NCBI GenBank assembly: GCA_043808175.1
Contig: JAZDFE010000002.1
Coordinates: 4,906 to 68,905 of the forward strand
Direction of reading: 5' to 3'
DNA from: Candidatus Omnitrophota bacterium
GTDB lineage: Bacteria; Omnitrophota; Omnitrophia; Omnitrophales; Aquincolibacteriaceae
Length of the DNA stretch: 64,000 nucleotides
Each line of letters opens with the position of its first letter. The first letter of the stretch is position 1. This document shows positions 5,089 through 55,111 of the stretch, one piece after another. Both the position numbers and the translations under genes were made by a program. The notes below the pieces were generated by a model that was not told the origin of the DNA, made no database searches, and was given only the letters and a program-made list of their open reading frames with translations.

Positions 5089-5143
5089 GAACCACGCTCC
5101 ACGATCCATGCACCACGTGGCCCGTGGCACGTGGAACGTGGAA
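5089..5143. repeat. GC-rich heptad palindrome (CCACG/CGTGG family)
   Basis: gaaCCACGctCCACGatCCATGcaCCACGTGGccCGTGGcaCGTGGaaCGTGGaa, centred on CACGTG. Lies between the MFP stop and the RND start. Confidence 0.85.
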
Positions 5144-20137: not shown

Positions 20138-20668
20138 TTATCCGTGGATCGTGGTACGTGTCCCCGGAATTTCTCGGTAGATCTCAAGGTCCTGTTCTGA
20201 AAATAGAACGAAGATCACTTTTTCAAGGGACTCCGGATCTTCCTCCAGGAACCTCCGGACCGTTCCCACGGCAATCGCGGCGGCCTTCCGGATGGGAAAC
20301 CTGTAGGCCCCGGTCGAAATGGAGGGGAACGCGATCGTTTTCAAGTGATGGGTTTGAGCGCATTTTAAGGAGTTCCTGTAACAGGAGGCCAAAAGTGCTT
20401 CCTCTTGAGACTTTCCTCCGTGCCACACAGGGCCTACGGTATGAATGACAAAACGCGCCGGAAGCTCGTACCCCTTCGTGATCTTGGCCTGCCCCGTCTC
20501 GCAGCTACCCAGGCCTTTGCATGCTTCGAGAAGCGCCGGACCGGCGGCCCGGTGGATCGCGCCATCGACTCCCCCGCCGCCGAGCAGGGTCCGGTTGGCC
20601 GCGTTCACGATCGCATCGCAGCTGAGACGGGTAATATCGCCATGGATGAGTTCGATCGCAGTCTTCAT
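20138..20668 (-). CDS. macro-domain protein (O-acetyl-ADP-ribose deacetylase, YmdB-like)
   Basis: [43 protein letters not shown]. The last ~10 codons ([11 protein letters not shown]) are encoded by a heptad-repeat half element at 20143-20172. Confidence 0.88.
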
Positions 20669-21707: not shown

Positions 21708-21771
21708 GAGCCACGAGCCAAGCACCACGCACCACGAAGCTCGTGTCCCGTGGTTCGTGGCACGTGTCCCC
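21708..21771. repeat. GC-rich heptad palindrome
   Basis: gagCCACGagCCAAGcaCCACGcaCCACG-aagct-CGTGTCCCGTGGttCGTGGcaCGTGTCC, directly after the histidine-kinase stop. Confidence 0.85.
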
Positions 21772-25564: not shown

Positions 25565-25660
25565 TTTTCCCTCCTTTTTCTTCGGTTTGAAACGACTCAT
25601 AGTCGGTTGAGAAAAAACACGGAAAAGACAAGTCCGGCCGTGTCCCGACGGTTCGTGGCT

Positions 25661-25775
25661 CGTGGCACGTGTCCCCGGAATTATTGTGTCCCGTGGTACG
25701 TGTCCCCGGAATTATTGTGTCCCGTGGCACGTGTCCCCGGAATTATTGTGTCCCATGGCTCGTGGCACGTGTCCC
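25661..25775. repeat. 3.5 tandem copies of a 31-nt unit (GC-rich heptad family variant)
   Basis: CGTGGCACGTGTCCCCGGAATTATTGTGTCC at 25661, 25692 (one substitution) and 25723, then a partial copy. The copies are contiguous with no spacers. Confidence 0.9.
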
Positions 25776-27302: not shown

Positions 27303-27339
27303 GGGATACCCCGAATGAAACTCGAAAGGTACCGTTCAA

Positions 27340-27372
27340 CGAGTCCCGAGTCCCGAGTCCCGTGTCCCCTGT
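27340..27372. repeat. heptamer tandem CGAGTCC x3 + CGTGTCC
   Basis: CGAGTCCCGAGTCCCGAGTCCCGTGTCCcctg, immediately 3' of the metallopeptidase gene. The same junction occurs at 31872-31892. Confidence 0.85.
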
Positions 27373-27377
27373 TTTTG

Positions 27378-31847: not shown

Positions 31848-31892
31848 GCTCCACGCTCCACGTTCCACGAATCCCGAGTCCCGTGTCCCCTG
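31848..31892. repeat. GC-rich heptad repeat block
   Basis: gctCCACGctCCACGttCCACGaatcCCGAGTCCCGTGTCCcctg. Confidence 0.8.
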
Positions 31893-31898
31893 TTTTTG

Positions 31899-34980: not shown

Positions 34981-35096
34981 ACGTCCTACGAATGAACACC
35001 CTGGCTTTTAATTATTCCACCATCCGTACGGCACTTGTACCGATGCACAAGTACGGCAGGGTCACTTTTCAAGGTTAATCGTGTACCCTGACCGCG
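34981..35096. repeat. hairpin-module array (AT-loop family, partly inverted orientation)
   Basis: ACGTCCTACGAATG is the reverse complement of the CATTCGTAGGACG leader. CACTTGTACcgatGCACAAGTA; GGGTCA..TGTACCCtgaccgcg. Confidence 0.65.
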
Positions 35097-35761: not shown

Positions 35762-35772
35762 AGCACGCCCGC

Positions 35773-36186
35773 ATGGAACTCGTCGTTGACGCGAACATCC
35801 TGCTCGCCGGTTTCATGAAGGCGGCCGTGACGCGGGAACTTCTTCTGGACACTCGCCTGAAGTTACACGCCCCGGAATATCTGGTCTATGAAACGCGGAA
35901 ACACCTTTTGGGGAATTCCAGCCTGCGCAAACGCATCGGTTTGTCGTCTAAGCAGATCGAGGAGACATGGTTCATTCTCACACAGAATATTGAATCGCAT
36001 GCACAAACCGATTATCAAAAAGTCTATCTTTCCGCGCTTAAGATCGCGCCCCACCCCGAGGACGCTCCCTATCTCGCCCTCGCCTTAGACATGGGACTTC
36101 CCCTCTGGTCCAATGATCATGGAATGAAAATGCAGAATCGGGTCAAAGTATTCACAACCCATGAATTGTTAAATAAACTCCGCTAG
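35773..36186 (+). CDS. PIN-domain toxin (VapC-like)
   Basis: MELVVDANILLAGF... (first acidic residue), further acidic residues at E..(YETR) and D (WSNDHG). The 137-aa size is typical. Confidence 0.7.
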   Translation: MELVVDANILLAGFMKAAVTRELLLDTRLKLHAPEYLVYETRKHLLGNSSLRKRIGLSSKQIEETWFILTQNIESHAQTDYQKVYLSALKIAPHPEDAPYLALALDMGLPLWSNDHGMKMQNRVKVFTTHELLNKLR

Positions 36187-36265
36187 TCTGTGGTTGTATC
36201 GATAAGGAACCGATGCAAGAAATGCACAGGTTGCGCCGGATAACAAAGAGAGGAACGGTTGATTA

Positions 36266-38330: not shown

Positions 38331-38407
<77 letters not shown>

Positions 38408-43992: not shown

Positions 43993-44949
43993 TCACAAGT
44001 GGGATCCCCTTTCGGCGGCATCGCCGAAACGGGACGGAAAAGGCTCATACCAGTCAAGCAAGAGGGAGAAATCAACGGCTTTAACGGAATGGGTCAGGGC
44101 ACCGACGGAAATGGTATCGACGCCCGTTGCGGCAAACTTACGGACGTTCGCGAGCGTGATACCTCCCGAGGCTTCGATCATGACGCCAGGGGCTTCCTTG
44201 TGAATGATCCCCACGGCCCTCCGGGTTTCCTTGGGCGAAAAATTATCCAGAAGGATCACCTTGGGCTTGAGCGCGATCGATTGGCGGAGCTCCTTGAGGT
44301 CGCGGACCTCGATCTCGAAATCACGCAGGTGTCGTTTCAGTTTCGAAAGATCGCCGTAAAGCCGGTGGTTTTCCTTCACGAAAATATACGCATCCAGGCC
44401 GGGGCGGTGTCTCCGACCCCCGCCGACCTCAACGGCCACCTTTTCCAGTTCGCGCCAAAGCGGCGCGGTCTTGCGCGTGTGGAGAAGAAGGACCGGATAT
44501 TCTTTTATTTTTTCCACGAACTGGCGCGTTTTGGTCGAGATCCCGGAAAGATGGCTGATAAAATTGAGCAGGGTCCTCTCCACCTTCAGGATCGACCGGA
44601 TATTCCCGCGCATTTTGAAAACGATCTTCCCGGGCCGGAGCTTCCCTCCGTTATGGACCCAGAATTCGAGCTTCACTTTCGGATCCACGATCTTGAAGAT
44701 CTCTCTTACGAGCCGCTCGCCGCAAAAGATCCCGCGGTCCTTGGCGATCACACGGGCTTCGCCCTTGGTTTGGGCCGGGATCAGAAGATTTGAGGTGATA
44801 TCTCCGTGTCCGATATCCTCCCTCAGGGCTTCCTTGATGAAATTCAGGGTCCGCTGGGAGACATGGAGCGGATGGCCGTGGATGCCGTGCCTTTTGCTAA
44901 AGACCGGCGAGCTGGGTTTTGTAGGATACAAGAAGACTTTTCGCATCAT
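43993..44949 (-). CDS. nadC: nicotinate-nucleotide diphosphorylase (carboxylating)
   Basis: ALREDIGHGDITS, ERTLLNF, HTRKT, VKENH, IEASGGI. The start is set at the first in-frame ATG (44949), which overlaps the valS 3' end by ~50 nt. The start is uncertain. Confidence 0.85.
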   Translation of the reverse strand: MMRKVFLYPTKPSSPVFSKRHGIHGHPLHVSQRTLNFIKEALREDIGHGDITSNLLIPAQTKGEARVIAKDRGIFCGERLVREIFKIVDPKVKLEFWVHNGGKLRPGKIVFKMRGNIRSILKVERTLLNFISHLSGISTKTRQFVEKIKEYPVLLLHTRKTAPLWRELEKVAVEVGGGRRHRPGLDAYIFVKENHRLYGDLSKLKRHLRDFEIEVRDLKELRQSIALKPKVILLDNFSPKETRRAVGIIHKEAPGVMIEASGGITLANVRKFAATGVDTISVGALTHSVKAVDFSLLLDWYEPFPSRFGDAAERGSHL

Positions 44950-47707
44950 TGAGTTTCTCTTTTTCTTTTTCAAGGATCTCTTTTGGCGCTTTTTCGGCAA
45001 AAGAAGGGTTCTCAACTTTTTTACGGATGTTCTCTATCCATTGTTCGGTTTCTTGGATCCTTTTCTGGAGCCGTTTTTTCTCTTCTTCCGGGTCCAGGAT
45101 CCCCTCGAGCGAGATAAAAATATCAAAAGCCGCAAAGGAGTTCGCCGCCATCGTGCCTTTTTTCTGGAAGGTACGCACACATTGAAGCTCCGCGAGCCGG
45201 CCCAGTGTCTTCACCTCGCGTTCAAAGGCTTTAAAGATCTCCTGCGTCCCCTGCTCTTTACAAACAAGGGCGGCCTTGAGTTTCTCCGTCGGCGCGATCC
45301 GGGACCGGACCCTGAGATCGCGGATACCGCCCACGGCGTCCTGCAAAAGACCGATCGCCTCCTGCGCTTCCGCGTCGTGGAACTTCTTTTTCCCGTCATG
45401 CGGCCAACCGGCGAACATGAGGGTCTCGGGCCAGGTATTGGCGTCGGCCGCTTTTTGTTTGAACGTCTGCCAGATCTCTTCGGTGATGAACGGCATGAAA
45501 GGATGCAGGAGCCTCAGGATCTTTTCTGTCACATAAAAAAGAACTTTTTGCGTCTGAAGTTTTAAAGCGGCGTCGGCGGATTGGGTCATGGGTTTTGCGA
45601 GCTCGATATACCAGTCGCAGAAATCATCCCACACGAAGTGATAAAGCTCGATCGCCGCCTGGGCGAGGCCGAACTGGGAAAGGTGCTTTTCGATCGCAGC
45701 GGCTTTTTCCTCAAGACGCGACAGGATCCAGCGGCTGGGAAGCGAGAGTGCTTCCTTTTTGAACTGTCCGGGGTCCGTCGAAGCGGTTTCGAGGCCCCCG
45801 AGTTGCATCAGCACGAACCGGCAGGCGTTCCAGACCTTGTTCGCGAAATTACGGCCGACTTCGAATTTTTCGCGCGAAAGATAAACATCCTGCGCCGAAA
45901 GCATCACGAGACTGTAGCGCAGGGCGTCGGCCCCCATCTCTTCGATCACCTCAAGCGGGTCGATGGAGTTCCCGAGCGATTTCGACATCTTGAGCCCGGT
46001 GGCTACGCGGACCGTGCCGTGAATATTAATTTGGGTGAACGGGACTTCGCCCATGAATTCAAGGCCCGCCATGATCATGCGCGCCACCCAGAAGAAAATG
46101 ATCTCCGGAGCGGTCACGAGGTCCGAGGTCGGGTAGAATTTTTTCAGGTCTTCGGTCTTGGCCGGCCAGCCCAGGGTCGAGAACGGCCACAGCCAGCTGG
46201 AAAACCAGGTGTCTAAAACATCAGGATCTTGTTGAAGTTCGGTGTTCCCGCAAGAGGGACATTTTGACGGCTTTTCGCGAGCGACAATGATCCCTTCCGA
46301 GCCACGAGCCACGGGACACGGCCCATCGGATTTTTCGTGGTTCGTGGCACGTGGTGCTTGGCCCTGCGCGCAGCGCGCGCAATACCACGCCGGGATCTGA
46401 TGCCCCCACCAGATCTGCCGCGAGATACACCAGTCACGGATGCCGCCGAGCCAGTTAAGATAAACCTTGGTCCAGCGGTCCGGATAGAAAACCGTTTTTC
46501 CCTGCTCATGCGCCTTGAGGGCCTTCGCGGCCAGCGGCTGCATTTTGACGAACCATTGTTTGGAAAGGTACGGTTCGACCACGGTATCGCACCGGTAGCA
46601 ATGTCCGACCGCGTGCAGATGCGAATCGCGTTTAATGAAAAGACCGCGCGCCTCGAGATCATGAATGATCTTCTTACGCGCGTCGAACCGGTCCATCCCC
46701 TTGTAAACACCACCGCGTTCGTTGATCTTGCCGTCCGGCGTCATGACATTGATCTGCTCGAGATTATGGCGGTACCCCATCGCGAAGTCGTTGGGGTCAT
46801 GCGCCGGCGTGACTTTCACGATGCCGGTCCCGAATTCAGGGTCCACAAATTCATCCGCGATCACCGGGATCTCGCGGTCCATGAGCGGCAGGATGACCTT
46901 CTTGCCGATCAAGCGTTTGTAACGCGGATCGCCCGGATGGACCGCGACGGCCGTATCACCCAACATCGTTTCGGGACGCGTCGTCGCGACCACGATATGG
47001 TCTTCGCCCATCTTTTCATGGGGACCGCTCTTCCCCGCGATCGGATATTTGATGTGATAAAGCCCGCCCTGCACGTCCTTGTGGGCGGCTTCTTCGTCCG
47101 AAAGCGCGGTCTGGCAGCGCGGGCACCAGTTGATGATATAGTTGCCGCGATAGATCAGCCCCCGTTCATAGAGCGTGACGAACGCCTCGCGTACCGCCTT
47201 GGAAAGCCCTTCGTCCATGGTGAACCGTTCGCGGGTCCAGTCGCAGGAAGCCCCGAGGCGGCGGAGCTGGCGCGTGATGGTCGACCCGTGTTCGTTCTTC
47301 CATTTCCAGACTTCTTTTAAGAAAGCCTCGCGGCCGACGTCCCACCGGGTTTTCTTTTCCTTGGCGAGTTTCTTCTCCACCACATTCTGCGTCGCGATCC
47401 CCGCGTGGTCTACGCCCGGCACCCAAAGCGTATCCCGGCCTTTCATGCGGTTCCAACGGACGAGGACATCCTGGATGGAATTATTGAGCGCGTGGCCCAT
47501 GTGCAGGATGCCCGTGACATTGGGAGGAGGAATGACAATGACGTAAGGGCCCACGGGACACGGGCCATGGGCCACGTCTTTTTCCGTGGAGCGTGGGGCG
47601 TGGGACGTGGCCCGGTCACTTTGCGGGCGGAAATAACCCTTCGACTCCCAGAGGGAATACCACTTGGTTTCGACCTGCCTAGAATGATATTGTTTGTCTA
47701 GTTCCAT
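44897..47707 (-). CDS. valS: valine--tRNA ligase
   Basis: Trimmed to the ATG at 47707 (MELDKQYH...). HIGH region PPPNVTGILHMGHA, KMSKS LKMSKSLGN, CP1 editing domain, C-terminal coiled coil. It contains two repeat-derived in-frame insertions. Confidence 0.95.
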   Translation of the reverse strand: MELDKQYHSRQVETKWYSLWESKGYFRPQSDRATSHAPRSTEKDVAHGPCPVGPYVIVIPPPNVTGILHMGHALNNSIQDVLVRWNRMKGRDTLWVPGVDHAGIATQNVVEKKLAKEKKTRWDVGREAFLKEVWKWKNEHGSTITRQLRRLGASCDWTRERFTMDEGLSKAVREAFVTLYERGLIYRGNYIINWCPRCQTALSDEEAAHKDVQGGLYHIKYPIAGKSGPHEKMGEDHIVVATTRPETMLGDTAVAVHPGDPRYKRLIGKKVILPLMDREIPVIADEFVDPEFGTGIVKVTPAHDPNDFAMGYRHNLEQINVMTPDGKINERGGVYKGMDRFDARKKIIHDLEARGLFIKRDSHLHAVGHCYRCDTVVEPYLSKQWFVKMQPLAAKALKAHEQGKTVFYPDRWTKVYLNWLGGIRDWCISRQIWWGHQIPAWYCARCAQGQAPRATNHEKSDGPCPVARGSEGIIVAREKPSKCPSCGNTELQQDPDVLDTWFSSWLWPFSTLGWPAKTEDLKKFYPTSDLVTAPEIIFFWVARMIMAGLEFMGEVPFTQINIHGTVRVATGLKMSKSLGNSIDPLEVIEEMGADALRYSLVMLSAQDVYLSREKFEVGRNFANKVWNACRFVLMQLGGLETASTDPGQFKKEALSLPSRWILSRLEEKAAAIEKHLSQFGLAQAAIELYHFVWDDFCDWYIELAKPMTQSADAALKLQTQKVLFYVTEKILRLLHPFMPFITEEIWQTFKQKAADANTWPETLMFAGWPHDGKKKFHDAEAQEAIGLLQDAVGGIRDLRVRSRIAPTEKLKAALVCKEQGTQEIFKAFEREVKTLGRLAELQCVRTFQKKGTMAANSFAAFDIFISLEGILDPEEEKKRLQKRIQETEQWIENIRKKVENPSFAEKAPKEILEKEKEKLNDAKSLLVSYKTQLAGL
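46299..46366. repeat. GC-rich heptad palindrome inside valS (internal)
   Basis: gaGCCACGaGCCACGgGACACGgcccatcgg-attttt-CGTGGttCGTGGcaCGTGGtgCTTGGccctg. It encodes ...APRATNHEKSDGPCPVARGS... between the CARC and CPSC zinc knuckles. Confidence 0.8.
47547..47615. repeat. GC-rich heptad palindrome inside valS (N-terminal)
   Basis: gggcCCACGgGACACGggCCATGggCCACG-tcttttt-cCGTGGagCGTGGggCGTGGgaCGTGGcccgg. It encodes ...RATSHAPRSTEKDVAHGPCPVGP... just before the HIGH motif. Confidence 0.8.
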
Positions 47708-47716
47708 AAATTCAAA

Positions 47717-47782
47717 GAGCCACGGCCCACGCACCACGAGCTACGATTTTCGTGGCCCCTGGCCCGTGGAACGTGGCCCCGG
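47717..47782. repeat. GC-rich heptad palindrome (cimA/valS junction)
   Basis: gaGCCACGgcCCACGcaCCACGagCTACG-atttt-CGTGGccCCTGGccCGTGGaaCGTGGcccc. Confidence 0.88.
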
Positions 47783-47784
47783 TT

Positions 47785-49353
47785 TTACCCTTTGTGCAGT
47801 TTATATTCGATGGCTTCCACGAGGGCTTGCCAGCTGGCTTCGATGATGTTCTCGTGAACGCCCACCGTGGTCCAGCTCCTGTCCTTGTCCTGGAATTCGA
47901 TGAAAACGCGCACCTTGGCGGCGGTCCCGGCCTCGGAATTAACGACGCGCACTTTATAATCCGTCAGGTGGATCTCGGAGATCGACGGGAACGAACGGCC
48001 GAGCGCTTTGCGGAGCGCGGAATCAAGCGCGTTCACCGGGCCGTCCCCTTCGGCGGATTCGAAATGCTCCTCCCCTCCGGCCGTGATCGTGACGTCCGCA
48101 ATGGAACGAGGGATCCCTTTGCCGATATTCTCGGTCCGGACCGAGATGTCTTTGACTTTGAAGAACGGCTTGAATTTTCCGAGAAGTTTCTGCACCAAAA
48201 GCTCGAAGCTCGCCTCCGCGGCCTCGAATTGGTAGCCCTCATGTTCAAGGCGCTGGATCTCGGTCAGGATCTTCTGCGTCTCGGGCGAATCCTTTTTGAA
48301 ATGCATCTCGAGTTCCCGGGCCTTGATCATGATATTGGTCTTCCCGCCAAGCTCGGAGACGAGGTAGCGGCGATAATTGCCGAGGGCCTTGGGCTCCACG
48401 TGCTCGTAGGTCTTGGCGTTCTTCATCATGGCGTTGATATGCACGCCGCCTTTATGCGCGAACGCGGAACGGCCCGTGAACGGCTGGTGGTTCACGAGCG
48501 GCATATTGCAAACCTCGGCCACGTAGTGCGAGAGCTGGGTCAATTCTTTCATCTTCTTCGCCGGAAAACACGGGGTCTTCATCTTGAACTGCAGGTCCGG
48601 GATGATGCTCACGAGGTTCGCGTTCCCGCAGCGCTCCCCGTAGCCGTTGATCGTTCCCTGCACCAGGACGCATCCTTCGCCCACCGCCTGAATGGAATTC
48701 GCGACCGCGAGTTCGGAATCATTGTGGCAATGGATGCCGAGCGGCGTTCTCACGGAGCGCTTCACTTTAAGGATCGCGTGACGGATCTCGTGCGGCAAAC
48801 TCCCGCCGTTCGTGTCACAAAGCGTGAGAATATCGGCCCCCGCCTTCGCGGCCTGCCGGAGCGTTTCGAGCGCGTAGTCCGGGTTCGCTTTGAACCCGTC
48901 GAAGAAATGTTCCGCATCATAGATCACTTCGAGCCTCCGGTCCTTGAGATAAGCGACCGTCTCGTAGATCATCAGAAGATTTTCTTTGAGCGTGGTCTTG
49001 AATACTTCCGAAACGTGAAAATCCCAGGATTTCCCGAACACCGTCGCCACCCGGGTGCCGGCCCCGATCAAAGCCTTCACGTTCGGGTCGTCCTTGACCT
49101 TGGTGTGTGCGCGCCGCGTGGAGCCAAAAGCCACGATCCTGGAACGCTTGATCCCGGCTTTCTTGACCATCGCGAAGAATTCCATGTCCTTGGGGTTCGA
49201 GCCCGGCCACCCGCCTTCGATGTAGTGAATGCCGAACTGATCGAGCCGTTTCGCGATCAGGAGCTTGTCATGCGAAGACAGACTGATGCCTTCCGCTTGA
49301 GAACCGTCGCGGAGCGTGGTGTCGTAAAATAGTATTTTTTTGGTTTTACTCAT
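47785..49353 (-). CDS. cimA: citramalate synthase (LeuA-related, CimA-type)
   Basis: FYDTTLRDGSQAEGISLS..DKL.IA..LD.FGI.YIEGGWPGSNPKD is the hallmark N-terminus of CimA-type enzymes. HxH metal site GIHCHND. C-terminal LeuA-dimer-like regulatory domain. Confidence 0.8.
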   Translation of the reverse strand: MSKTKKILFYDTTLRDGSQAEGISLSSHDKLLIAKRLDQFGIHYIEGGWPGSNPKDMEFFAMVKKAGIKRSRIVAFGSTRRAHTKVKDDPNVKALIGAGTRVATVFGKSWDFHVSEVFKTTLKENLLMIYETVAYLKDRRLEVIYDAEHFFDGFKANPDYALETLRQAAKAGADILTLCDTNGGSLPHEIRHAILKVKRSVRTPLGIHCHNDSELAVANSIQAVGEGCVLVQGTINGYGERCGNANLVSIIPDLQFKMKTPCFPAKKMKELTQLSHYVAEVCNMPLVNHQPFTGRSAFAHKGGVHINAMMKNAKTYEHVEPKALGNYRRYLVSELGGKTNIMIKARELEMHFKKDSPETQKILTEIQRLEHEGYQFEAAEASFELLVQKLLGKFKPFFKVKDISVRTENIGKGIPRSIADVTITAGGEEHFESAEGDGPVNALDSALRKALGRSFPSISEIHLTDYKVRVVNSEAGTAAKVRVFIEFQDKDRSWTTVGVHENIIEASWQALVEAIEYKLHKG

Positions 49354-49370
49354 AAGTTTAAACTTTCAAA

Positions 49371-49447
49371 GGGCCGCGGGACACGACCCGCGAGCCACGA
49401 CCCGCGAGCCACAAAAACGTGGCGCGTGGACCGTAGAACGTGGACCG
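49371..49447. repeat. GC-rich heptad palindrome (lysC/cimA junction)
   Basis: gggccgcgGGACACGacCCGCGagCCACGacCCGCGagCCAC-aaaaa-CGTGGcgCGTGGacCGTAGaaCGTGGaccg. Confidence 0.88.
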
Positions 49448-49449
49448 TA

Positions 49450-50667
49450 TTATTTCTTGCCGAGTCCGAACGCCTGGTGAATGACCTTCGCGGCGAGCTT
49501 GCCTTTATCGCCGGCCACCACGACCGAGATCTTGATCTCGGAAGTGGAGATCATATCGATATTGATCTTGTTCTTGGCCAAGGTCGAGAACATCTTGGAC
49601 GCGATGCCCGAATGGGACCGCATGCCGATCCCGACCACGCTCACCTTCGCGATATTCTCGTCGCAAGTGACGTTCGTGGCGCCGACCTTCTTCATGGCGG
49701 CTTTCACGACCTTCATGGCCTTCACCAGTTCGTTCTTGAAGACGGTAAAAGAAATATCCGTGGAATTCGTCTGTGTTTTGTTCTGGATGATCATATCCAC
49801 GTTTACATTCGCGTCCGCCAGGGTCTGGAAGACCTTGGCCGCCACGCCCGGACGGTCCGAGACGCGGAACAGGGTGATCTTGGCTTCATCTTCGGCGAGT
49901 GCGACGCCGCTTACGACGACTTCTTCCATGGCTTTATTCTCCTTCGTGATAAGAGTTCCTTTGTGGTCGTTCTGGGAATTGCGGACCCAGATCGGCATGT
50001 TGAATTTTTTCCCGACTTCGATCGAACGTGAATGCATCACTTTCGCGCCGAGCGACGCGAGCTCCAGGATCTCATCGTAAGTGACCCGGTCCATCTTTTG
50101 CGCTTCCGGGATCACGCGCGGGTCCGCGGTGAAGATCCCGTCCACGTCCGTATAGATCTCGCAATGTTTCGCCTTCAGGGCGACCGCGAGCGCCACGGCC
50201 GTCAGATCGGAACCGCCGCGACCGAGCGTCGTGATCTCGCCCGAGGGCGTCTGGCCCTGGAATCCGGCCACGATCACGATCTTCCCTTCGCTCAAGGCCT
50301 TCTTGATCCGATCCGGGCTGATGTTCTGAATACGCGCCTTGCTGTGGAACTCATCCGTCATGATCCCGACCTGCGGGCCCGTGAACGAGACCGCTTCATG
50401 ATCGAGCTTGTGGATCGCCATGGCCAAAAGCGCGATCGACACCTGCTCGCCCGTGGCAAGCAACATGTCCATCTCGCGCTCCTGCGGATCGGAGTTGATC
50501 TGTTTCGAGAGATCGATCAGGTCGTCGGTCATATCGCCCATGGCGGAAACGACCACGACGACCTTGTTCCCCGCTTGCTCGGTTTTGATCACACGTTGAG
50601 CGACCCGTAAGATCTTTTCCGCGTTCGCGACCGAGGAACCGCCGTATTTCTGTACGATCAATGACAT
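49450..50667 (-). CDS. lysC: aspartate kinase
   Basis: Trimmed to the ATG at 50667 (MSLIVQKYGGSSV). Kinase core plus two C-terminal ACT domains. Confidence 0.92.
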   Translation of the reverse strand: MSLIVQKYGGSSVANAEKILRVAQRVIKTEQAGNKVVVVVSAMGDMTDDLIDLSKQINSDPQEREMDMLLATGEQVSIALLAMAIHKLDHEAVSFTGPQVGIMTDEFHSKARIQNISPDRIKKALSEGKIVIVAGFQGQTPSGEITTLGRGGSDLTAVALAVALKAKHCEIYTDVDGIFTADPRVIPEAQKMDRVTYDEILELASLGAKVMHSRSIEVGKKFNMPIWVRNSQNDHKGTLITKENKAMEEVVVSGVALAEDEAKITLFRVSDRPGVAAKVFQTLADANVNVDMIIQNKTQTNSTDISFTVFKNELVKAMKVVKAAMKKVGATNVTCDENIAKVSVVGIGMRSHSGIASKMFSTLAKNKINIDMISTSEIKISVVVAGDKGKLAAKVIHQAFGLGKK

Positions 50668-50730
50668 GGTAATGACCTTTTCGATTTGATTGGTTTTAAA
50701 AAACATGTTTCCAAAATAACCACCGTTGTG

Positions 50731-50780
50731 CGGGCCACGTTCCACGCGCCACGCATTCCGTGGCCCTTGGCCCGTGGAAC
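50731..50780. repeat. GC-rich heptad palindrome (kinase/lysC junction)
   Basis: cggGCCACGttCCACGcgCCACG-cattc-CGTGGccCTTGGccCGTGGaac. Confidence 0.88.
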
Positions 50781-50785
50781 AGCTC

Positions 50786-51991
50786 CTAAGAGGCCTTAGT
50801 CATGAAAAATGGCATCAGTTCCGTGGTTTTATTGAATTTCACTTCCGAAGTTTTGGCCGCGAGCTCCGAGAACCGCTCGATCTCGTCAGGCATGATGTTC
50901 TTGCCGGTCACGGCGAAGGGAACGCTGTCGCGAACGATCTCCTTCATTTTCCAAAGGGTCGCATGACCCGGCGTGACCAGAAGGCGCGAATCTTTGGAGC
51001 GCTCCAGATATTTGCGGACCTTCGAAAGAACGAAGAAATCGATCCCCTCGATCGCCGAGACCTTTCCCTTCACATCTCCGGCCCGCGACGCCTCCTCGGG
51101 AGTGTGGAGATGGAGACAAACAAAATCTTTTTCTTCCAGGGCCTCGATCGCCACTTTGGAGATCTTGTCATAAAAAGCCGCGGGCTCTTCGCCCCCTTCC
51201 TTGACCTCCATGACCGTGAGTCCCGCCATGCGGCCCAGGCCCCTCGCGTATTCGCGCGCGGCGACCATCGCGCCGCCGGTGATGTCAAAACATTCGCGGA
51301 AAGGTGTGAGGAACGGCTTCTTTCCCTGTCCCCAAAGCCAGATCATGTTCGCGGGATTCTCGCCGAGGTCCACGCGCACCTGATTGATCTCATGGTCCTG
51401 CAAGAGAAGCCTGGCGTCATACATCAATTTTCGCATCAATTCCTCGCCCGGACCCTTCGGCAGCACATCCTCGATCTTCTCGCCGATCACGCTCTCGGGC
51501 GGCTGGGTCTTCGCGGACAAGGCCTCGAATCCGTTCGCGTCCTTGATCACCGCAAGGTGCCGGTGCCCGGAACCCGAGAAGAACCGCACAAAATCGCTTG
51601 CTACCTTTTTGTTCAAAAAATTGACGAGCGCCTTCGCCTCTTTGGTGCTAAGGGCTCCGGCAGTCGGATCGGCCAGCATCCCCGCGGCCTCGGTGATGAA
51701 ATTCATGCAGAACGCGACTTCTTTGTCGTCGAGCGTCAGTTCCTTATCGGCAGCCTCAAGCGGTCCGCGGCCGGTATAAAGTTTCGACGCGTCGTAGCCT
51801 AAAAGATTGAATAGGCTCACGTCCGCGGAAAGCGGCAAACGTTCGGAAACAAGTTTCGCGGTCCCTACCTTTCCGTTCTTCGCAAAAAAATTCAAATTGG
51901 GGACCTTGGCCGCTTCCAAAGGAGTTTTTCCTCCGAGTTCCTCGGTCGGATGATCCGCAGCGCCCGCGAGAACCACAACGATAGATTTCAT
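50786..51991 (-). CDS. cofactor-independent phosphoglycerate mutase (ApgM) family protein; proposed non-canonical homoserine kinase
   Basis: [28 protein letters not shown] ApgM-type N-terminus with metalloenzyme core. It sits between thrC and lysC, overlapping the thrC stop. The kinase role is by analogy with thr-operon-linked ApgM homologues. Confidence 0.7.
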
Positions 51992-53058
51992 CGGATGACC
52001 TCCTTTACGGCATCGAGAGTGGATTTGACCTTATAGACCGGATCTTCGAAGCTGAGCGCAAAATCGGGGTCTTTCAACCCCGCACCCGTCAGCGTGATCA
52101 CAATGCGGGATCCTTCCTTGAAAAATCCCTTTTTCGCTAGGTTGATCACTCCGGCGACCGGCGCAACACTGGCCGGTTCCGCGAACACGCCTTCGCGCTC
52201 CGCGATAAAACGGTACGCCTTCGTGATCTCCTCGTCCGTCACCTTATCGATCAGGCCGCCCGATTCGTCGCGCGCGTTGACGGCGCCCTGCCAGCTCGCG
52301 GGATTTCCGATACGGATGGCAGTCGCGATCGTCTCCGGTCTTTCCACCGGATGCCCCAGCACGATCGGTGCGGACCCCGCGGCCTGAAAGCCGAGCATCT
52401 TCGGTAAGGTTTCGGACTTCCCCGCTTTTTTATATTCCTTGTAGCCCATCCAGTAAGCCGTGATATTGCCGGCATTCCCGACCGGGATCGCGTGATATTC
52501 CGGTGCGTCCCCGAGATCATCGACGATCTCGAACGCCGCCGTCTTCTGTCCTTCGATGCGGTACGGATTGATGGAATTCACAAGCGTGATCTTCCCTTCC
52601 CGGGTGATCTCTTTGACGAGTTCAAGCGCCTTGTCAAAATTCCCCTCGACCATGATCACCTTCGAGCCGTAGCGGTACGCCTGCAAAAGTTTTCCTTTGG
52701 CGATCTTCCCTTCCGGGATCAACACAAAACATTTGAGCCCGCACCGGCACGCGTAAGCCGCGGCAGAGGCGGACGTATTCCCGGTCGAGGCGCACATCAC
52801 GGCCTTCGAGCCCGCTTCAACCGCCTTCGAGATCGCCAGGGTCATCCCGCGGTCCTTGAACGAACCCGTCGGGTTCAGGCCTTCGAATTTGTAATAGATC
52901 CGGATATTTTTCAGACCGAGTTCCTGAGGCAGGGCCTCCGCGAGAATGAGCGGCGTATTGCCTTCATTGAGCGAAATGATGGGCGTCTTATCCGTGACCG
53001 GAAGATATTCCTGATAGCGCTCGATGATCCCGATCTTCTTGACCGCGTATGTCCCCAT
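51988..53058 (-). CDS. thrC: threonine synthase
   Basis: PLP-lysine motif [14 protein letters not shown]. 356 aa, collinear with short-type ThrC. Confidence 0.92.
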
Positions 53059-53062
53059 ACCG

Positions 53063-54358
53063 TCAGGCCTCTTCGATGCGAATGACCTGGGTCTTGCCCT
53101 TGATACAGGACATGCCGTCGATCTCGCGGACCGCGGCCCTCAGGTCTTTTTCGTGGGTATCATGCGTTAAAAGGATGAGCGGCACCACGCGCCCCGCGCT
53201 GCGTTCACGCTGCATGACGTCCGAGATGCTGATCTTGTGTTTTCCGAGGATCTTCGAGATATTCGCGAGCACGCTGGGTTTGTCGATCACATAGAACCGT
53301 AAATAATAGCGCGACAGGATCGAGAAAATGCTTTTCACCGGGAGGGTCTTCCCGAGCGCCCGGACCATGAACCGGTCCTCTGCGGGCCCCGCGACTCCGG
53401 CTTTCGCGATATCCACCAGGTCCGCGATCACCGCGCTCGCGGTCGGATGCGGCCCCGCTCCGCGGCCGTAAAAAAGCACGTCGCCCACTTCGTCGCCGCG
53501 CATGAGGATCGCGTTGAACGATCCGTTCACGTTCGCGAGGATGTGCGAATTCGGCAAAAGCGTCGGCTGAACGCGCGCCTCCATACCCTCCCCCGACCGC
53601 TTGGCGATCGCGAGCAATTTGATCGTGTACCCGAATTCTTTGGCGAAGGCAATATCGTCGCTTGAGATCTCGGTGATCCCCTCGCAGTAAATGTCCTTGA
53701 ACTTCACTTTCCCGCCGAAAGCGAAACGGGCGAGGATCGCGAGCTTGTGCGCGGCGTCGTGCCCGCTCACGTCAAGAAAAGGGTTCGCCTCGGCAAAACC
53801 CTGCTTCTGGGCGCCGGTCAATGCTTCCTTAAAACTCATGCCCTTGGCGGTCATCTGGGTCAGGATGTAATTCGTGGTCCCGTTGATAATGGCGTGCATC
53901 GAATCGATACGGTTCGCCGCAAGTCCTTCACGAAGCGCCTTGATGCACGGAATGCCGCCTCCCACGCTCGCCTCAAAACAAAGCCAGCGTTTCATCCGGT
54001 GCGCGAGTGCGAAGATCTCATCGCCGTGCTCGGCCAGAAGGGCTTTATTAGCGGTCACCACATGTTTGCCGTTTTTGAGCGCTTCTTTGATCAACTGCCG
54101 GGCGACCGTTGTGCCGCCGATCAGTTCGACCACGACATCAATGGACGGATCCCGCACGACGGCAAAAGCGTCCCGGGTCATGATACTTTTCGGAGGATGG
54201 ACTTTTTTATTCCGCCCGGGATATTTCTCCGCGATCCTCGCGAGCTCGAAAGACACCCCGAGCTGGCGGGCGAACAAAGCCTTCTTCGCCTTAAGGATCT
54301 CATAAAGTCCGGTGCCGATCTGTCCCAACCCGAGAAGTCCGATCTTGATCTTTTTCAT
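53063..54358 (-). CDS. hom: homoserine dehydrogenase
   Basis: Trimmed to the ATG at 54358, which has GAGGAG upstream. NAD-binding [11 protein letters not shown], catalytic domain, C-terminal ACT domain. Confidence 0.92.
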
Positions 54359-54411
54359 ATTTCTCCTCAAGCAAACGCCCTAAGTTCAGTAATGACAAAA
54401 CCTTAAGTCGG

Positions 54412-54500
54412 GGCAGCACTGATTCTCATTGATTGAAAATTATAATGTAATCAGTGCAGTCCTGGCTACCTTCAATTTCCAATAAAAGCCAGGGCAGTAT
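54412..54500. repeat. hairpin-module array (two modules)
   Basis: CTGATTctcattgattgaaaattataatgtAATCAGtgcagtc + CTGGCTaccttcaatttccaataaaAGCCAGggcagtat. Confidence 0.75.
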
Positions 54501-54547
54501 ATCCCACCCCAAAGTAAAAATCAAACAGCCCTTGCCCTTGAAATGCC

Positions 54548-54595
54548 GCACCACGCCAACCGCTCCACGCGCCACGTGGCACGTGCTACGAGGTG
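54548..54595. repeat. GC-rich heptad palindrome upstream of hom
   Basis: gcaCCACGccaaccgctCCACGcgCCACGTGGcaCGTGCtaCGAGGtg, centred on CACGTG. Confidence 0.8.
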
Positions 54596-54685
54596 TTTCA
54601 GCATTTCCAACGGAGTTTACTTTAAAAATGATTTATGTATACTATTCCCCTGTTTTCCGTCATAAACTAAATAAAGGGTCCACCT

Positions 54686-55111
54686 ATGAAAAAGGGTTAT
54701 CTTGTTATTCTTGTTCTTTTGACCACCGTCATCCAACTCGGCATGGCGCGGTCCGGCCAGTATGATGAAGACGCGCGCGCGCAGGAAAAGATCCAGAAAC
54801 AAATGGATAACGAGAACCTAACCCCTGAAAAGAGCCATCCCGCAAAAAATTTCGCGACGGGAGTTAAAGAAATGACGGTTGATAATGTGAAGGACACTCT
54901 CGACGATACGGCCCACAGCACCATGAGCGAAAAGCCGGTGGTCGGGACCCTGGACGGAACGCAGCAGGCAGGAGAAAAGGTCGTCGATAACACCATCAAG
55001 GGCGTCAAGAAGGTCGTTTCTCTCGGCTACGCGAAAAACGATCATTACGAGATCGAACAGGCCGAAAAGGGCTCCGGCGACGCCGCCAAGATCAAGCTCT
55101 TCAAGTTCTAA
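54686..55111 (+). CDS. secreted hypothetical protein
   Basis: Signal-like MKKGYLVILVLLTTVIQLGMA. The 141-aa hydrophilic mature part has no motif. Confidence 0.6.
   Translation: MKKGYLVILVLLTTVIQLGMARSGQYDEDARAQEKIQKQMDNENLTPEKSHPAKNFATGVKEMTVDNVKDTLDDTAHSTMSEKPVVGTLDGTQQAGEKVVDNTIKGVKKVVSLGYAKNDHYEIEQAEKGSGDAAKIKLFKF

What the first reader, a model, noticed from the sequence alone, without database searches (positions are those of the whole stretch)
46299..47615. Two heptad palindromes are inserted in frame in valS and encode similar peptides
Copy 1 (47547-47615) lies between the conserved GYF(K/R)P and the HIGH region. The sequence reads ...YFRPQSDR[ATSHAPRSTEKDVAHGPCPVGP]YVIVIPPPNVTG, whereas E. 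coli ValRS has only ~10 residues there. Copy 2 (46299-46366) lies between the two Cys pairs of the zinc knuckle. The sequence reads WYCARCAQGQ[APRATNHEKSDGPCPVARGS]EGIIVAREKPSKCPSCG, roughly 20 residues longer than the Thermus-type spacing I recall. Both insertions have the same orientation and give related peptides (A-T-S/N-H ... GPCPV). At the DNA level they are full members of the intergenic family (four CCACG units, a T-rich loop, four CGTGG units). The macro-domain gene similarly ends in a repeat-encoded tail ([11 protein letters not shown], 20138-20172). An essential aminoacyl-tRNA synthetase tolerating two such insertions argues that the element spreads into coding DNA and is selected to stay open in one frame.
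Basis: partly seen in the sequence, partly recalled or inferred. Interest (0 to 1): 0.7.

Follow-up and report, generated by a model that had tools for sequence, protein, structure and literature searches.

The report
Heptad-repeat palindromes translated inside ValRS
Two copies of a short repeated DNA hairpin that normally sits just after genes lie, in frame, in two flexible linkers of the essential enzyme valyl-tRNA synthetase of an uncultured Omnitrophota bacterium, and related bacteria carry other versions of such repeats at exactly the same two spots.

Summary
valS (44897-47707, minus strand, 936 aa) holds two full members of a window-wide family of imperfect palindromes, (NNCCACG)x3-4, a short loop, then (CGTGGNN)x3-4. 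They lie at 47551-47610 and 46302-46361, both in frame. The nearest relative (4-fold divergence 0.19), outgroups and Thermus ValRS have short linkers there, so these are lineage-specific gains.

The element needs no selection to stay open in one frame. A CCACG-NN-CCACG array cannot contain a stop triplet on either strand, and 46 of 48 frames across eight elements are open. All three frames of a heptad array give the same cyclic 7-aa peptide, so similar peptides are expected.

Beyond the finding:
- The two ValRS sites are clade-wide hot spots, expanded in 31 and 34 of 56 orthologues, and filled by at least five different heptad cores.
- A MiaB loop behaves the same way.
- Intergenic copies start 6-8 nt after stop codons. 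They fold strongly, and two orthologous copies are more conserved than neutral sites.
- Coding copies fold more weakly, and the site-1 copy is decaying.

The closest known kinds are the heptameric inverted repeat arrays of Xanthomonas and Nostoc and the in-frame Rickettsia RPEs. I rate this a new variant of a known kind. How the arrays spread is unresolved.

The parts
44897..47707 (-). valS, valine--tRNA ligase, 936 aa, intact (HMGH and KMSKS present). It hosts both inserts.
   Evidence: 100% match to an NCBI Omnitrophota MAG ValRS; Pfam tRNA-synt_1, Anticodon_1, Val_tRNA-synt_C; 1GAX, E 2e-227.
47546..47611 (-). Insert copy 1 (residues 33-54, ATSHAPRSTEKDVAHGPCPVGP). It is a 4+4 heptad palindrome at 47551-47610, in the linker between the N-terminal helix (GYFRP) and the strand leading to HIGH. 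It replaces an ancestral xGKKxxGK linker.
46298..46363 (-). Insert copy 2 (residues 451-470, APRATNHEKSDGPCPVARGS). It is a 4+4 heptad palindrome at 46302-46361, between the two CxxC pairs of the second zinc knuckle.
   Evidence: (19-residue gap in Thermus).
47720..47776 (-). Intergenic family member between the cimA/leuA-like stop (47785) and the valS start. First core is 8 nt after the stop. Strongest hairpin (-47 kcal/mol, z -6.5). This slot is filled in all 10 genomes read.
49381..49443 (-). Intergenic family member between the lysC stop (49450) and the cimA/leuA-like start. First core is 6 nt after the stop. CCGCG and CTACG variants are present.
50735..50777 (-). Intergenic family member (3+3) after the apgM stop (50786). 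It is orthologous to L002 4727-4773, with 3 of 51 nt different.
21711..21767 (-). Intergenic family member 7 nt after the stop of a PAS histidine kinase gene (21775-23007, minus strand).
5092..5141 (-). Intergenic family member with no loop (centre CCACGTGG). It lies 8 nt after the stop of ORF 5150-6370 and upstream of the AcrB-family gene.
54551..54586 (.). Degenerate, short family member between divergent genes. It has no significant fold.
20138..20172 (-). Repeat-encoded C-terminal tail [11 protein letters not shown] of the macro-domain gene (20138-20683). It is a single-arm array plus the AATTCCGGGGACACG motif.
27337..27373 (.). Single-arm array of a second core, (GAGTCCC)x3 then GTGTCCC, immediately downstream of ORF 27378-27755 (minus strand).
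31851..31894 (.). Hybrid single-arm array, (CCACGNN)x3 continuing in register into TCCCGAG/TCCCGTG units. It sits at the edge of a 300-nt duplicated segment.
25654..25772 (.). 31-bp tandem repeat (about 3.8 copies) made of CGTGG/CGTGT heptads plus CCCCGGAATTATT. It is intergenic, between two small minus-strand genes.

Best explanation
The two segments are copies of a genome-wide family of microsatellite-like palindromes. Each has two inverted arrays of three to four 7-nt units (a 5-nt core CCACG plus two free bases) around a short loop.

The family's normal place is the first few bases after the stop codon of a gene that is followed by another gene on the same strand. There the copies form strong hairpins. 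Two orthologous intergenic copies are conserved well above the neutral rate. They probably act as RNA or DNA hairpins at gene ends, in the way REP/BIME elements do (inferred).

In the lineage of this genome such arrays also replaced two short, flexible, purine-rich surface linkers of ValRS. They are read through by the ribosome and add about 14 and 19-20 residues of P/R/T/H/G-rich, low-complexity loop.

They survive for four reasons:
1. These heptad cores cannot make stop codons in any of the six frames.
2. Three heptads equal seven codons, so 21-nt slippage keeps the frame.
3. The two sites tolerate almost any length.
4. The peptides are hydrophilic.

In coding DNA the hairpin is not maintained, and the one copy that can be compared with an orthologue decays at about the neutral rate.

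The arrays do not arrive by classical cut-or-copy transposition with terminal repeats and target duplications. They most likely arrive by array formation or replacement at pre-existing sites, through slippage plus template switching or short-patch conversion from other arrays. This last step is inferred, not shown.
For: Shown:
- Family membership and excess over chance.
- Empty ancestral linkers in the nearest relative and in outgroups.
- In-frame, stop-free reading in all frames.
- 17 heptad arrays in intact ORFs across 10 sequences: W, L001-L003, L084, L085, L102, L103, L097 and L086.
- A 21-nt (three-heptad, 7-aa) difference between the window and L001/L002 at site 1.
- Hot spots: site 1 is expanded in 31 of 56 and site 2 in 34 of 56 orthologues, while the other ~860 residues are 856-861 aa long in 33 of 56.
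- Neighbouring genes (hom, thrC, apgM, lysC) are nearly constant in length in the same genomes; cimA/leuA and uvrB vary more.
- The MiaB loop after QNVNSY is expanded in 40 of 58 orthologues, with peptides that read like the same cores.
- All five full co-directional intergenic palindromes have their first core 6-8 nt after a stop codon.
- Intergenic copies fold better: mean z -5.7 (n=8) against -3.0 (n=12) for coding copies, Mann-Whitney p=0.002.
- Intergenic arms are conserved. L104 and L002 differ at 0 of 58 arm bases at 4-fold divergence 0.163. The window and L002 differ at 3 of 51 nt against about 0.18 in the flanks.
- The coding copy at site 1 differs at 6 of 39 nt between the window and L002 at 4-fold divergence 0.20, and lost its right arm in L001/L002.
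- There is no target duplication, and the linker is replaced rather than split.
Against: - No reads, proteomics or ribosome data show that the inserts are translated.
- Surface exposure rests on natural length variation and alignment to 1GAX. The AlphaFold model was too poor to use (mean pLDDT 65.7).
- The hairpin role of intergenic copies is inferred. None matches a simple terminator rule and Rfam has no family.
- The mode of spread is unknown.
- Spacers are almost random between copies, and sharing between elements is not above chance. This does not look like recent copying from a master element. The window is only 64 kb, though, so sibling copies may lie elsewhere.
- L102, a distant relative, has a perfect 4+4 CCACG palindrome at site 2 with the same right junction as the window. 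That hints at targeting or active homogenisation, which a purely passive model does not predict.
- ValRS-based counts are biased towards intact ORFs, because the relatives were found through predicted proteins.
- Whether a second, insert-free valS exists elsewhere in the genome cannot be checked from a 64-kb window.
Confidence: 0.62

Rival explanations
1. The elements are non-autonomous mobile palindromes (REP/REPIN- or MITE-like). A trans-acting nuclease or transposase, for example a RAYT/Y1 HUH enzyme, recognises the core and moves whole elements. The ValRS sites are preferred landing sites.
For: - Many copies share one core in a single genome.
- Cores are lineage-specific and several families coexist, as with REP classes.
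- Core positions are conserved while spacers are free, as expected for a recognition site.
- The window and the distant L102 share the same right junction at site 2.
- The window has CCACG in all five slots compared, whereas its two closest relatives have other cores or empty sites.
Against: - No target-site duplication and no conserved flanks; the target linker is replaced.
- No transposase or Y1_Tnp domain in the 36 window ORFs scanned.
- Loops differ between slots within one family. At valS site 1 and the leuA|valS slot they look alike across families. This is odd if whole elements move.
- Spacer patterns are not shared between copies.
- No copies were found on viral contigs.
Confidence: 0.2
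2. The arrays arise in place. Polymerase slippage on a 7-nt unit expands a local seed, and intrastrand template switching (quasi-palindrome correction) mirrors it to the other side of a pre-existing A/G-rich centre. No element moves.
For: - Heptamers are the over-represented long simple repeat in bacteria, and slippage has been proposed as the cause (PMC4692102).
- Single-arm arrays exist (L084 site 1, L102 site 1, window 27337).
- 21-nt step differences are seen.
- The loop of copy 1 (GAAAAAGAC) lines up with the ancestral GGGGAAAAAACC of the empty allele.
- The empty site 2 contains GGCCGCG and GGGAC, near-matches to two cores.
Against: - The same 5-nt core occurs in eight or more separate places in one 64-kb window, and in both ValRS and MiaB across genomes. 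Independent local origin cannot explain that.
- The near-matches in empty sites are within chance expectation by my estimate.
- Spacers are not homogenised as slippage would predict.
Confidence: 0.12
3. The inserts are adaptive ValRS modules, for example extra tRNA or partner contacts or an extended zinc knuckle, kept by selection for their peptide.
For: - Copy 1 is shared, about 78% identical, with P0025, a relative at about 81% overall identity.
- The inserts are hydrophilic and sit near the catalytic core.
Against: - Presence, absence and sequence differ between closest relatives.
- At least five unrelated cores fill the same sites.
- The peptides are simply the translation of an intergenic repeat.
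- Divergence is near neutral and one arm has been lost.
- The same peptides appear in MiaB and CobA.
Confidence: 0.04
4. The inserts are not translated. They would be bypassed by the ribosome or removed from the RNA. Alternatively, they are assembly artefacts.
For: Hairpin-forming mobile inserts that are bypassed during translation exist elsewhere (yeast mitochondrial 'byps', phage T4 gene 60). This is from my own knowledge, not a tool result.
Against: - All 17 arrays seen in ORFs keep the frame and lack stops. Chance would give (1/3)^17 if the frame did not matter, though most cases were found through intact proteins.
- The inserts are about 60 nt, shorter than a read.
- Analogous inserts occur in many independent assemblies from NCBI, JGI and ENA.
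Confidence: 0.02

Closest known systems
Heptameric simple-repeat arrays of Xanthomonas (GGGAATC) and Nostoc/Anabaena (GGGGA(C/T)T, the STRR type), described in Rehm et al. 2015, PMC4692102
   Same: - Tandem 7-nt units with five conserved and two variable positions.
- Most often four units.
- 70-75 convergent inverted pairs per genome.
- About 90% intergenic and close to the upstream ORF.
- The same gene pairs are occupied in related species, with length and sequence variation.
- Function unknown.
- Two of the cores found in relatives here (GGGACTC, GGGGAAC) are G-rich like those.
   Different: - A different phylum and different cores. CCACG has no G-tract, so G-quadruplex formation cannot be the common property.
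- Here the arrays are almost always paired into palindromes.
- At least seven cores turn over among close relatives.
- The arrays lie in frame inside essential enzymes at recurrent sites. This was not reported there, where intragenic cases were 7-11% and counted only as overlaps.
Rickettsia palindromic elements (RPE; Ogata et al. 2000, as summarised in PMC2229807)
   Same: Palindromic repeats found both between genes and fused in frame inside conserved protein genes (19 ORFs). The host enzyme is still active in the one case tested (gmk).
   Different: - RPEs are 105-146 bp with 12-bp terminal inverted repeats, and one defined sequence family encodes a fixed peptide.
- The elements here are about 45-65 nt and built from 7-nt units.
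- They are open in all six frames and come in many cores.
- They recur at the same two sites in orthologues.
REP/BIME and REPIN elements of proteobacteria
   Same: - Short imperfect GC-rich palindromes.
- Many copies.
- Located just after genes within operons.
- Species-specific sequence.
- Long persistence at the same positions.
   Different: - REPs are almost strictly extragenic, lack 7-nt internal periodicity, and have a conserved 5' tetranucleotide and a RAYT partner gene.
- None of these was found here.
Tandem repeats in Borg elements that create disordered protein regions (PMC9879509)
   Same: Fast-evolving nucleotide repeats that are kept in frame inside ORFs and add low-complexity, probably disordered peptide (abstract).
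   Different: Borg repeats are direct tandem repeats with unit lengths divisible by three inside genes. They are not inverted heptad arrays, and they lie in an extrachromosomal element rather than in core housekeeping genes.
Neisseria Correia/NEMIS 107-bp versus 155-bp forms (PMC2229807)
   Same: The form without stop codons is found fused into ORFs. The form with stops in all frames stays intergenic. Here the only core seen with a stop (TAGGATG, L084) was seen intergenically.
   Different: Correia elements are true MITEs with TA target duplications and terminal repeats.

Membership tests
CCACG heptad-palindrome family of this window | Two inverted arrays of at least three 7-nt units with core CCACG/CGTGG around a short loop | tested here: met
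   Both valS copies are 4+4. The pattern is 58 against 3.7 expected.
CCACG heptad-palindrome family of this window | Core conservation equal to intergenic members, with free spacers | tested here: met
   Core identity is 92.5% (coding) against 94.2% (intergenic). Spacers carry 0.25 bits or less.
CCACG heptad-palindrome family of this window | Strong hairpin | tested here: not met
   valS copies give z -1.6 and -2.0. Intergenic copies give -2.4 to -6.5, four of five at -3.3 or below. The coding copies have eroded as hairpins.
Heptameric SSR arrays (Xanthomonas GGGAATC / Nostoc GGGGAYT type) | Tandem 7-nt unit with 5 conserved and 2 variable positions, modal four units | tested here: met
   compared with PMC4692102.
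Heptameric SSR arrays (Xanthomonas GGGAATC / Nostoc GGGGAYT type) | Frequent convergent inverted pairs; mostly intergenic and close to the upstream ORF | tested here: met
   All 5 full co-directional intergenic palindromes have the first core 6-8 nt after a stop. Only valS (two copies) and the macro tail are coding, out of about 15 arrays.
Heptameric SSR arrays (Xanthomonas GGGAATC / Nostoc GGGGAYT type) | G3-4 tracts able to form G-quadruplexes | tested here: not met
   CCACG/CGTGG units have no G3 tract. Some relatives' cores (GGGACTC, GGGGAAC) do.
Rickettsia palindromic elements (RPE) | Palindromic repeat fused in frame inside conserved protein genes | tested here: met
   ValRS (twice), MiaB and CobA.
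Rickettsia palindromic elements (RPE) | 105-146 bp unit with terminal inverted repeats, one sequence family, Rickettsiales | tested here: not met
   The elements are 45-65 nt, built of heptads, and in Omnitrophota. Sequence similarity to RPE was not computed.
MITE | Terminal inverted repeats with a target-site duplication, and simple insertion into an otherwise intact target | tested here: not met
   Filled-versus-empty comparison with L104 and L083 shows no duplication. The linker and the whole intergenic spacer are replaced.
MITE | A parent insertion sequence with matching ends in the genome | not testable with these tools
   Only 64 kb of the genome is available.
REP/REPIN-RAYT | Cognate RAYT (Y1 HUH transposase) gene | tested here: inconclusive
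   No such domain in the 36 ORFs scanned against Pfam. The rest of the genome was not seen.
REP/REPIN-RAYT | Conserved tetranucleotide at the foot of the hairpin and strictly extragenic location | tested here: not met
   Flanks are not conserved. Copies lie inside ORFs.
Intrinsic transcription terminator | GC-rich hairpin followed by a U-run | tested here: not met
   None of the palindromes is listed by the terminator scan of 44000-55000. Some relatives' copies are followed by T-runs (L001, L003).
Any Rfam RNA family | Match at the gathering score | tested here: not met
   Only a tRNA at 38331-38404.
Translational bypass / excised intervening sequence | Insert length and content unconstrained by the reading frame | tested here: not met
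   All 17 arrays in ORFs are in frame and stop-free. There is some ascertainment bias.
Class Ia valyl-tRNA synthetase (host gene) | HIGH and KMSKS motifs, editing domain, anticodon-binding and C-terminal coiled-coil domains | tested here: met
   HMGH and KMSKS are present in the translation. Pfam domains are listed, and the alignment to 1GAX covers residues 46-921.

The most novel reading that the evidence does not exclude
The heptad palindromes are written by an unknown, core-specific process that installs or overwrites inverted arrays at fixed 'slots' while leaving the slot's own centre in place. The slots lie just after stop codons and in a few protein linkers such as the two in ValRS and one in MiaB.

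The evidence that leaves this reading open:
- The leuA|valS slot is filled in all 10 genomes read, with six different cores.
- Many of those copies share a GGAAAA-type centre.
- Arms are 100% conserved between L104 and L002, yet wholly different in the equally close window genome.
- A distant relative has a pristine CCACG copy at ValRS site 2 with the same junction as the window.

If real, this would be a new kind of programmable repeat-spreading system. It would be closer to a REPIN-RAYT-like partnership or to uptake-sequence 'dialects' than to a transposon.
Probability: 0.15. Interest if true: 0.85.

Novelty: new variant of a known kind. Interest (0 to 1): 0.6.

Why it matters
It gives a second, independent example, after the Rickettsia RPEs, of repeat DNA being carried in frame inside essential, highly conserved enzymes. 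This one is in a barely studied phylum and involves a different, microsatellite-like element.

It also links two literatures: heptameric repeat arrays of unknown function, and protein-coding palindromes.

In Omnitrophota these arrays are a main source of length variation in ValRS and MiaB. They create hypervariable, probably disordered loops at fixed positions.

There are practical consequences:
- Because the arrays are stop-free, gene callers extend ORFs into them. This gives false N-termini, C-terminal tails and read-through fusions.
- Alignments and trees of aaRS markers from this phylum contain repeat-derived blocks that should be masked.

The pattern of conserved slots with rapidly exchanged cores offers a tractable comparative system for asking how such repeats spread.

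Tried and rejected
1. AlphaFold2 of the ValRS with the 56-sequence alignment gave mean pLDDT 65.7 with low confidence across the catalytic core. It could not be used to show that the inserts are surface loops, and no fold search was run.
2. The genome-contig scan with the ValRS protein was swamped by generic ValRS. Only L003 was a close relative.
It was solved through cluster member P0272.
4. Rfam found no family.
5. The terminator scan did not list the palindromes.
6. Viral contigs had no CCACG or GGGACTC palindromes.
7. Pfam scans of 36 window ORFs found no transposase or RAYT.
8. A test for shared spacer patterns between elements, which would be evidence of recent copying, gave no signal (236 against 249 +/- 10 in permutations). 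The test has low power in 64 kb.
9. The idea that net insert lengths are multiples of 21 nt holds for the window and L002 at site 1, but not generally.
10. The idea that the 300-nt duplicates at 27333 and 31854 show in-place core overwriting was rejected. The duplication boundary simply lies inside the array.
11. High-GC contigs with CCACG-type palindromes (L090, L091, L093, L096) could not be shown to carry them inside real genes.
12. Near-matches to cores in the empty sites (GGCCGCG, GGGAC) were judged to be within chance.

Full report
**1. What is at the coordinates**

The minus-strand ORF 44897-47737 is valS. Orthologues and the identical NCBI protein start at the ATG at 47707 (MELDKQ...), which gives 936 aa. 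The protein is 100% identical to a ValRS of a Candidatus Omnitrophota MAG. It aligns to Thermus thermophilus ValRS (1GAX) over residues 46-921 (E 2e-227), and HMGH and KMSKS are intact.

- Residues 33-54 (ATSHAPRSTEKDVAHGPCPVGP, 47546-47611) are encoded by an 8-unit palindrome. On the + strand it reads CCACG/ACACG/CCATG/CCACG, TCTTTTTC, then CGTGG x4.
- Residues 451-470 (APRATNHEKSDGPCPVARGS, 46298-46357) are encoded by a second one. It reads CCACG/CCACG/ACACG/CCATC, ATTTTT, then CGTGG x3 and CTTGG.

**2. The family is real and both copies are full members**

CCACGNNCCACG with up to 1 mismatch occurs 58 times in the window against 3.7 +/- 1.8 in shuffles. A core-blind scan for period-7 runs finds 21 against 0-3 in shuffles.

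Full palindromes lie at 5092-5141, 21711-21767, 46302-46361, 47551-47610, 47720-47776, 49381-49443 and 50735-50777. A degenerate one lies at 54551-54586.

Over 54 units the five core positions carry 1.3-1.8 bits and the two spacer positions 0.25 bits or less. Core identity is 92.5% in the valS copies and 94.2% in the intergenic ones.

A second core (GAGTCCC/GTGTCCC) forms single-arm and hybrid arrays at 20801, 23724-23801, 24848, 27337 and 31851, and a 31-bp tandem repeat at 25654-25772. The macro-domain gene (PF01661, 20138-20683, minus strand) ends in [11 protein letters not shown], read from such an array.

**3. The segments are insertions, not ancestral loops**

Thermus ValRS has a 19-residue gap opposite copy 2. 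In an alignment of 56 Omnitrophota orthologues (A1), many sequences scattered over the tree, and all outgroups, have a short linker at site 1 (consensus SDHGKKSAGKPYVIV) and at site 2 (CxxCQAAGxxGIIVSR).

The nearest relative for which DNA could be read is L104/P0272, at 4-fold divergence 0.186 and seen in three independent assemblies. It has SDRGEKTSGKPYV and CSKDGEGQDGII.

At the DNA level the ancestral linker is replaced rather than split, and there is no target duplication. The loop of copy 1 (GAA AAA GAC) lines up with the GGG GAA AAA ACC of the empty allele.

**4. The frame argument does not hold**

A CCACG-NN-CCACG array cannot contain TAA, TAG or TGA on either strand whatever the spacer. 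Half of all 16,384 heptamers are stop-free on both strands.

Translating eight window elements in six frames gives 46 open frames out of 48. The two stops come from degenerate CTACG units in intergenic copies. All six frames of both valS copies are open.

Because 3 x 7 = 21, every frame of a heptad array reads the same seven codons in rotation, so related peptides are automatic. GPCPV comes from the sub-motif CCGTGTCCCGTGG, which intergenic arrays share.

The only real constraints are total length divisible by three and an acceptable loop. Copies in MiaB and CobA contain Trp-bearing versions of the same peptide cycle (HAPRTTHHESWPVARGSW; LHAPRATEHEKTAWVVDRGSWPG).

Orientation can be read only from the loop. 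The loop is A-rich on the sense strand in both valS copies and in most coding copies in relatives, but not in all intergenic copies. This is suggestive, not significant.

**5. The two sites are clade-wide hot spots with core turnover**

In the 56 orthologues, site 1 is expanded in 31 and site 2 in 34. The remaining ~860 residues are 856-861 aa long in 33 of 56.

DNA from nine relatives shows that the inserts are heptad arrays of different cores.

| Locus | valS site 1 | valS site 2 |
|---|---|---|
| Window | CCACG | CCACG |
| L001 | CCACG | GGGACTC |
| L002 | CCACG | CGGGGAA |
| L003 | GGGACTC | GGGACTC |
| L084 | (GAGTCCC)x4, single arm | no heptad array |
| L085 | CAGACCA-type | GCAGTCT-type |
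| L102 | TTCCCCG, single arm | perfect 4+4 CCACG |
| L103 | CCACG | GGATG |
| L083 | empty | empty |
| L104 | empty | empty |

A neighbour-joining tree built without the insert columns shows a patchwork. The window's closest neighbours are empty, CGGGGAA and GGGACTC at site 2.

Neighbouring genes in the same loci are hom 431-433, thrC 355-356, apgM 399-401, lysC 405, cimA/leuA 519-524 (547 in one) and uvrB 667-693 aa. The first four hardly vary in length.

**6. It is not peculiar to ValRS**

An exact scan of 241 million metagenome records for a 3+3 CCACG palindrome found only 16 contigs. Among them the element lies:
- in frame inside the radical-SAM domain of a MiaB-like enzyme (L097);
- inside a CobA/BtuR adenosyltransferase (L086);
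- at ORF ends (L094/L100);
- upstream of a band-7 gene (L098).

In 58 Omnitrophota MiaB orthologues the loop after QNVNSY is expanded in 40. The peptides read like the same cores: CCACG, CAACG (GATRNAQRATQEPNVDRCALSVE), CGTACGG (YGVRR...RTPYAV), GGGACTC (GTRDSGLGTRT) and GGGAACG (GNGERGTGN). Empty alleles read xGGHVx. Only L097 is confirmed at the DNA level; the rest is inferred from peptides.

**7. Intergenic copies behave differently from coding copies**

In all five full co-directional intergenic palindromes of the window, the first core starts 6-8 nt after the stop codon of the upstream gene (stops at 5150, 21775, 47785, 49450 and 50786). Single-arm arrays also abut stops.

Intergenic copies fold strongly (z -2.4 to -6.5), whereas the valS copies give z -1.6 and -2.0. 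Over 20 elements from the window and relatives, mean z is -5.7 (n=8, the leuA|valS slot) against -3.0 (n=12, coding), with Mann-Whitney p=0.002.

Intergenic arms are conserved beyond neutrality:
- L104 and L002 differ at 0 of 58 arm bases, at 4-fold divergence 0.163.
- The window and L002 differ at 3 of 51 nt in the apgM|lysC palindrome, against about 0.18 in its flanks.

The coding copy at site 1 differs at 6 of 39 nt between the window and L002, at 4-fold divergence 0.20. Four of seven spacer bases and one of 20 core bases changed. L001 and L002 have lost 21 nt (three heptads, 7 aa) of the right arm.

I read this as functional hairpins between genes and tolerated, decaying passengers inside genes. 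The hairpin's role is inferred: none matches a simple terminator rule and Rfam has nothing.

**8. Slots and turnover**

The leuA|valS spacer carries a heptad palindrome in all 10 genomes read, with six cores:
- CCACG: window, L083
- GGGACTC: L001, L003
- CGTACGG: L002, L104
- GGATG: L084, L103
- GGGGAAC: L085
- CAACG: L102

Many of these have a GGAAAA-type loop start.

Among the window, L002 and L104 (mutual 4-fold divergence 0.16-0.20), the window has CCACG in all five slots compared. The other two have other cores, other palindromes or empty sites in three to five of them.

Loops differ between slots within one family. At valS site 1 and the leuA|valS slot they look alike across families. 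L102, a distant relative, has a pristine CCACG palindrome at site 2 with the same right junction as the window (CGTGGCyCG|GAAGG).

Spacer patterns are not shared between window elements beyond chance. The window holds no transposase among the 36 ORFs scanned, and no copies occur on viral contigs.

These facts fit poorly with a classical MITE. They leave open three mechanisms: a core-recognising trans-acting system, short-patch conversion or template switching between arrays, or slippage-driven growth around a fixed centre. I cannot discriminate among them with 64 kb.

**9. Comparison with what is known**

The anatomy matches the heptameric repeat arrays described in Xanthomonas (GGGANTN) and Nostoc. 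Those have five conserved and two variable positions, a mode of four units, 70-75 convergent inverted pairs per genome, and about 90% intergenic location close to the upstream ORF. The same gene pairs are occupied in sister species with sequence and length variation, and function is unknown (PMC4692102). That work favoured G-quadruplexes, but the CCACG core has no G-tract, so G4 formation cannot be the unifying property here.

The behaviour inside genes matches the Rickettsia RPEs: in-frame insertions in 19 conserved ORFs, with gmk still active (PMC2229807). It also matches the rule seen for Neisseria Correia forms, where only the stop-free form occurs in ORFs. Borg tandem repeats are a looser parallel for repeat-made disordered regions.

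Full-text searches found no description of such elements in Omnitrophota.

I therefore class this as a new variant of a known kind. The new elements are the palindromic heptad arrays with many rapidly exchanged cores, their fixed slots, and their recurrent in-frame residence in ValRS and MiaB.

**10. Limits**

- No read, RNA or protein data were available.
- Surface exposure is inferred from natural length variation and the 1GAX alignment, because the AlphaFold model was poor.
- ValRS relatives were found through intact predicted proteins, which biases in-frame counts.
- MiaB cores are mostly inferred from peptides.
- The mode of spread is unresolved.

Noticed in passing
window 19000-36200: A variable island of toxin-antitoxin or defence-like genes: Macro (20138-20683), SIR2 (26526-27302), HTH_37 (27915-28391), an HI1420-type antidote (30734-31099), HNH (32885-33829) and PIN (35758-36186). 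It is interleaved with 88-300-nt segments; the two-copy ones are 95-97% identical (27333-27632 = 31854-32153; 29525-29719 = 31590-31784; 20797-20946 = 23768-23917; 20939-21046 = 30602-30709). Several begin or end in heptad arrays.
   Followed up: partly
window 25654-25772: A 31-bp tandem repeat (about 3.8 copies) composed of CGTGG/CGTGT heptads plus CCCCGGAATTATT. It lies between two small minus-strand genes (25781-26182 and 25286-25600). The same CGTGTCCCCGGAATT motif recurs at 20160, 23760 and 24870.
   Followed up: partly
window 25781-26182, about 27737-27846, about 31763-31850 (minus strand): Three paralogous small genes or gene starts beginning M(Q/K)I(K/R)IKIG(E/K)(V/I)EIFATLKE. Heptad arrays lie directly upstream of at least one of them (31851-31894).
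   Followed up: no
window 47707-47740; P0019 and P0025 N-termini; L088 1-6921 and L101: Because the palindromes are stop-free, ORF finders run through them. The ORF tool starts valS at a GTG inside the upstream palindrome (47737). Some database ValRS entries carry about 20-aa false N-terminal extensions. A CCACG palindrome sits inside a 2,300-aa open frame that may be a read-through fusion.
   Followed up: partly
alignment A1, reference positions 226-232, 516-519, 651, 712, 754-757: Other, less frequent ValRS insertion spots in relatives carry peptides typical of other dispersed repeats, for example ...FPRVLSGNPEHGSPIGTFGDD... and GGWTGPTPGVGLG. They do not look heptad-derived.
   Followed up: no
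leuA|valS spacer: window 47720-47776; L001 2433-2526; L002 7816-7885; L083 4448-4514; L084 9916-9985; L085 9924-9993; L102 8873-8965; L103 9916-9990; L104 9930-10000: The centre of the palindrome, often GGAAAA on the sense strand, is similar across different core families at the same slot. Loops of one family differ between slots. The loop of valS copy 1 also lines up with the A-run of the empty allele. It looks as if arms are exchanged around a resident centre. This is unexplained.
   Followed up: partly
L090, L091, L093, L096 (metagenome contigs, GC 0.66-0.73): Perfect heptad palindromes with a CCACG core, for example (CCACGCT)x3 ... (AGCGTGG)x3, occur in high-GC contigs that are clearly not from this clade. 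Heptad palindromes therefore exist in other phyla too.
   Followed up: no
L102 444-526 and 8873-8965; L103 6110-6183; L104 6985-7030: A core CAACG differs by one base from CCACG and has the same 5+2 layout. This hints that cores may evolve by single steps. CCAAG, CCATG and CCGCG variants occur within the window's own arrays.
   Followed up: no
window 38331-38404 (+): A tRNA gene (Rfam RF00005, 64 bits).
   Followed up: no
window 55620-63998 (-) and 9622-12237 (-): A giant open frame of at least 2,792 aa runs off the window end. Relatives have 4,445- and 9,273-aa genes near the same hom-thrC cluster. A separate 871-aa ORF has no Pfam match.
   Followed up: no
window 44897-45015: The nadC (QRPTase) reading frame overlaps the 3' end of valS by roughly 50-120 nt, depending on the start chosen. 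The called genes of relatives show a similar overlap (for example L001, 5275 against 5324).
   Followed up: no
alignment A1, site 2 flanks: The sequence around ValRS site 2 falls into two allele classes, PAWHC..CQAAG...GIIVSR..PE.CP.CG..DLVQDP and PVWYC.KC.Q.QT...VSREDI..CPHCGSKDIKRDE. They do not follow the tree of the rest of the protein, which suggests recombination of the zinc-knuckle module between lineages. P0036 and P0107 lack the cysteines altogether.
   Followed up: no
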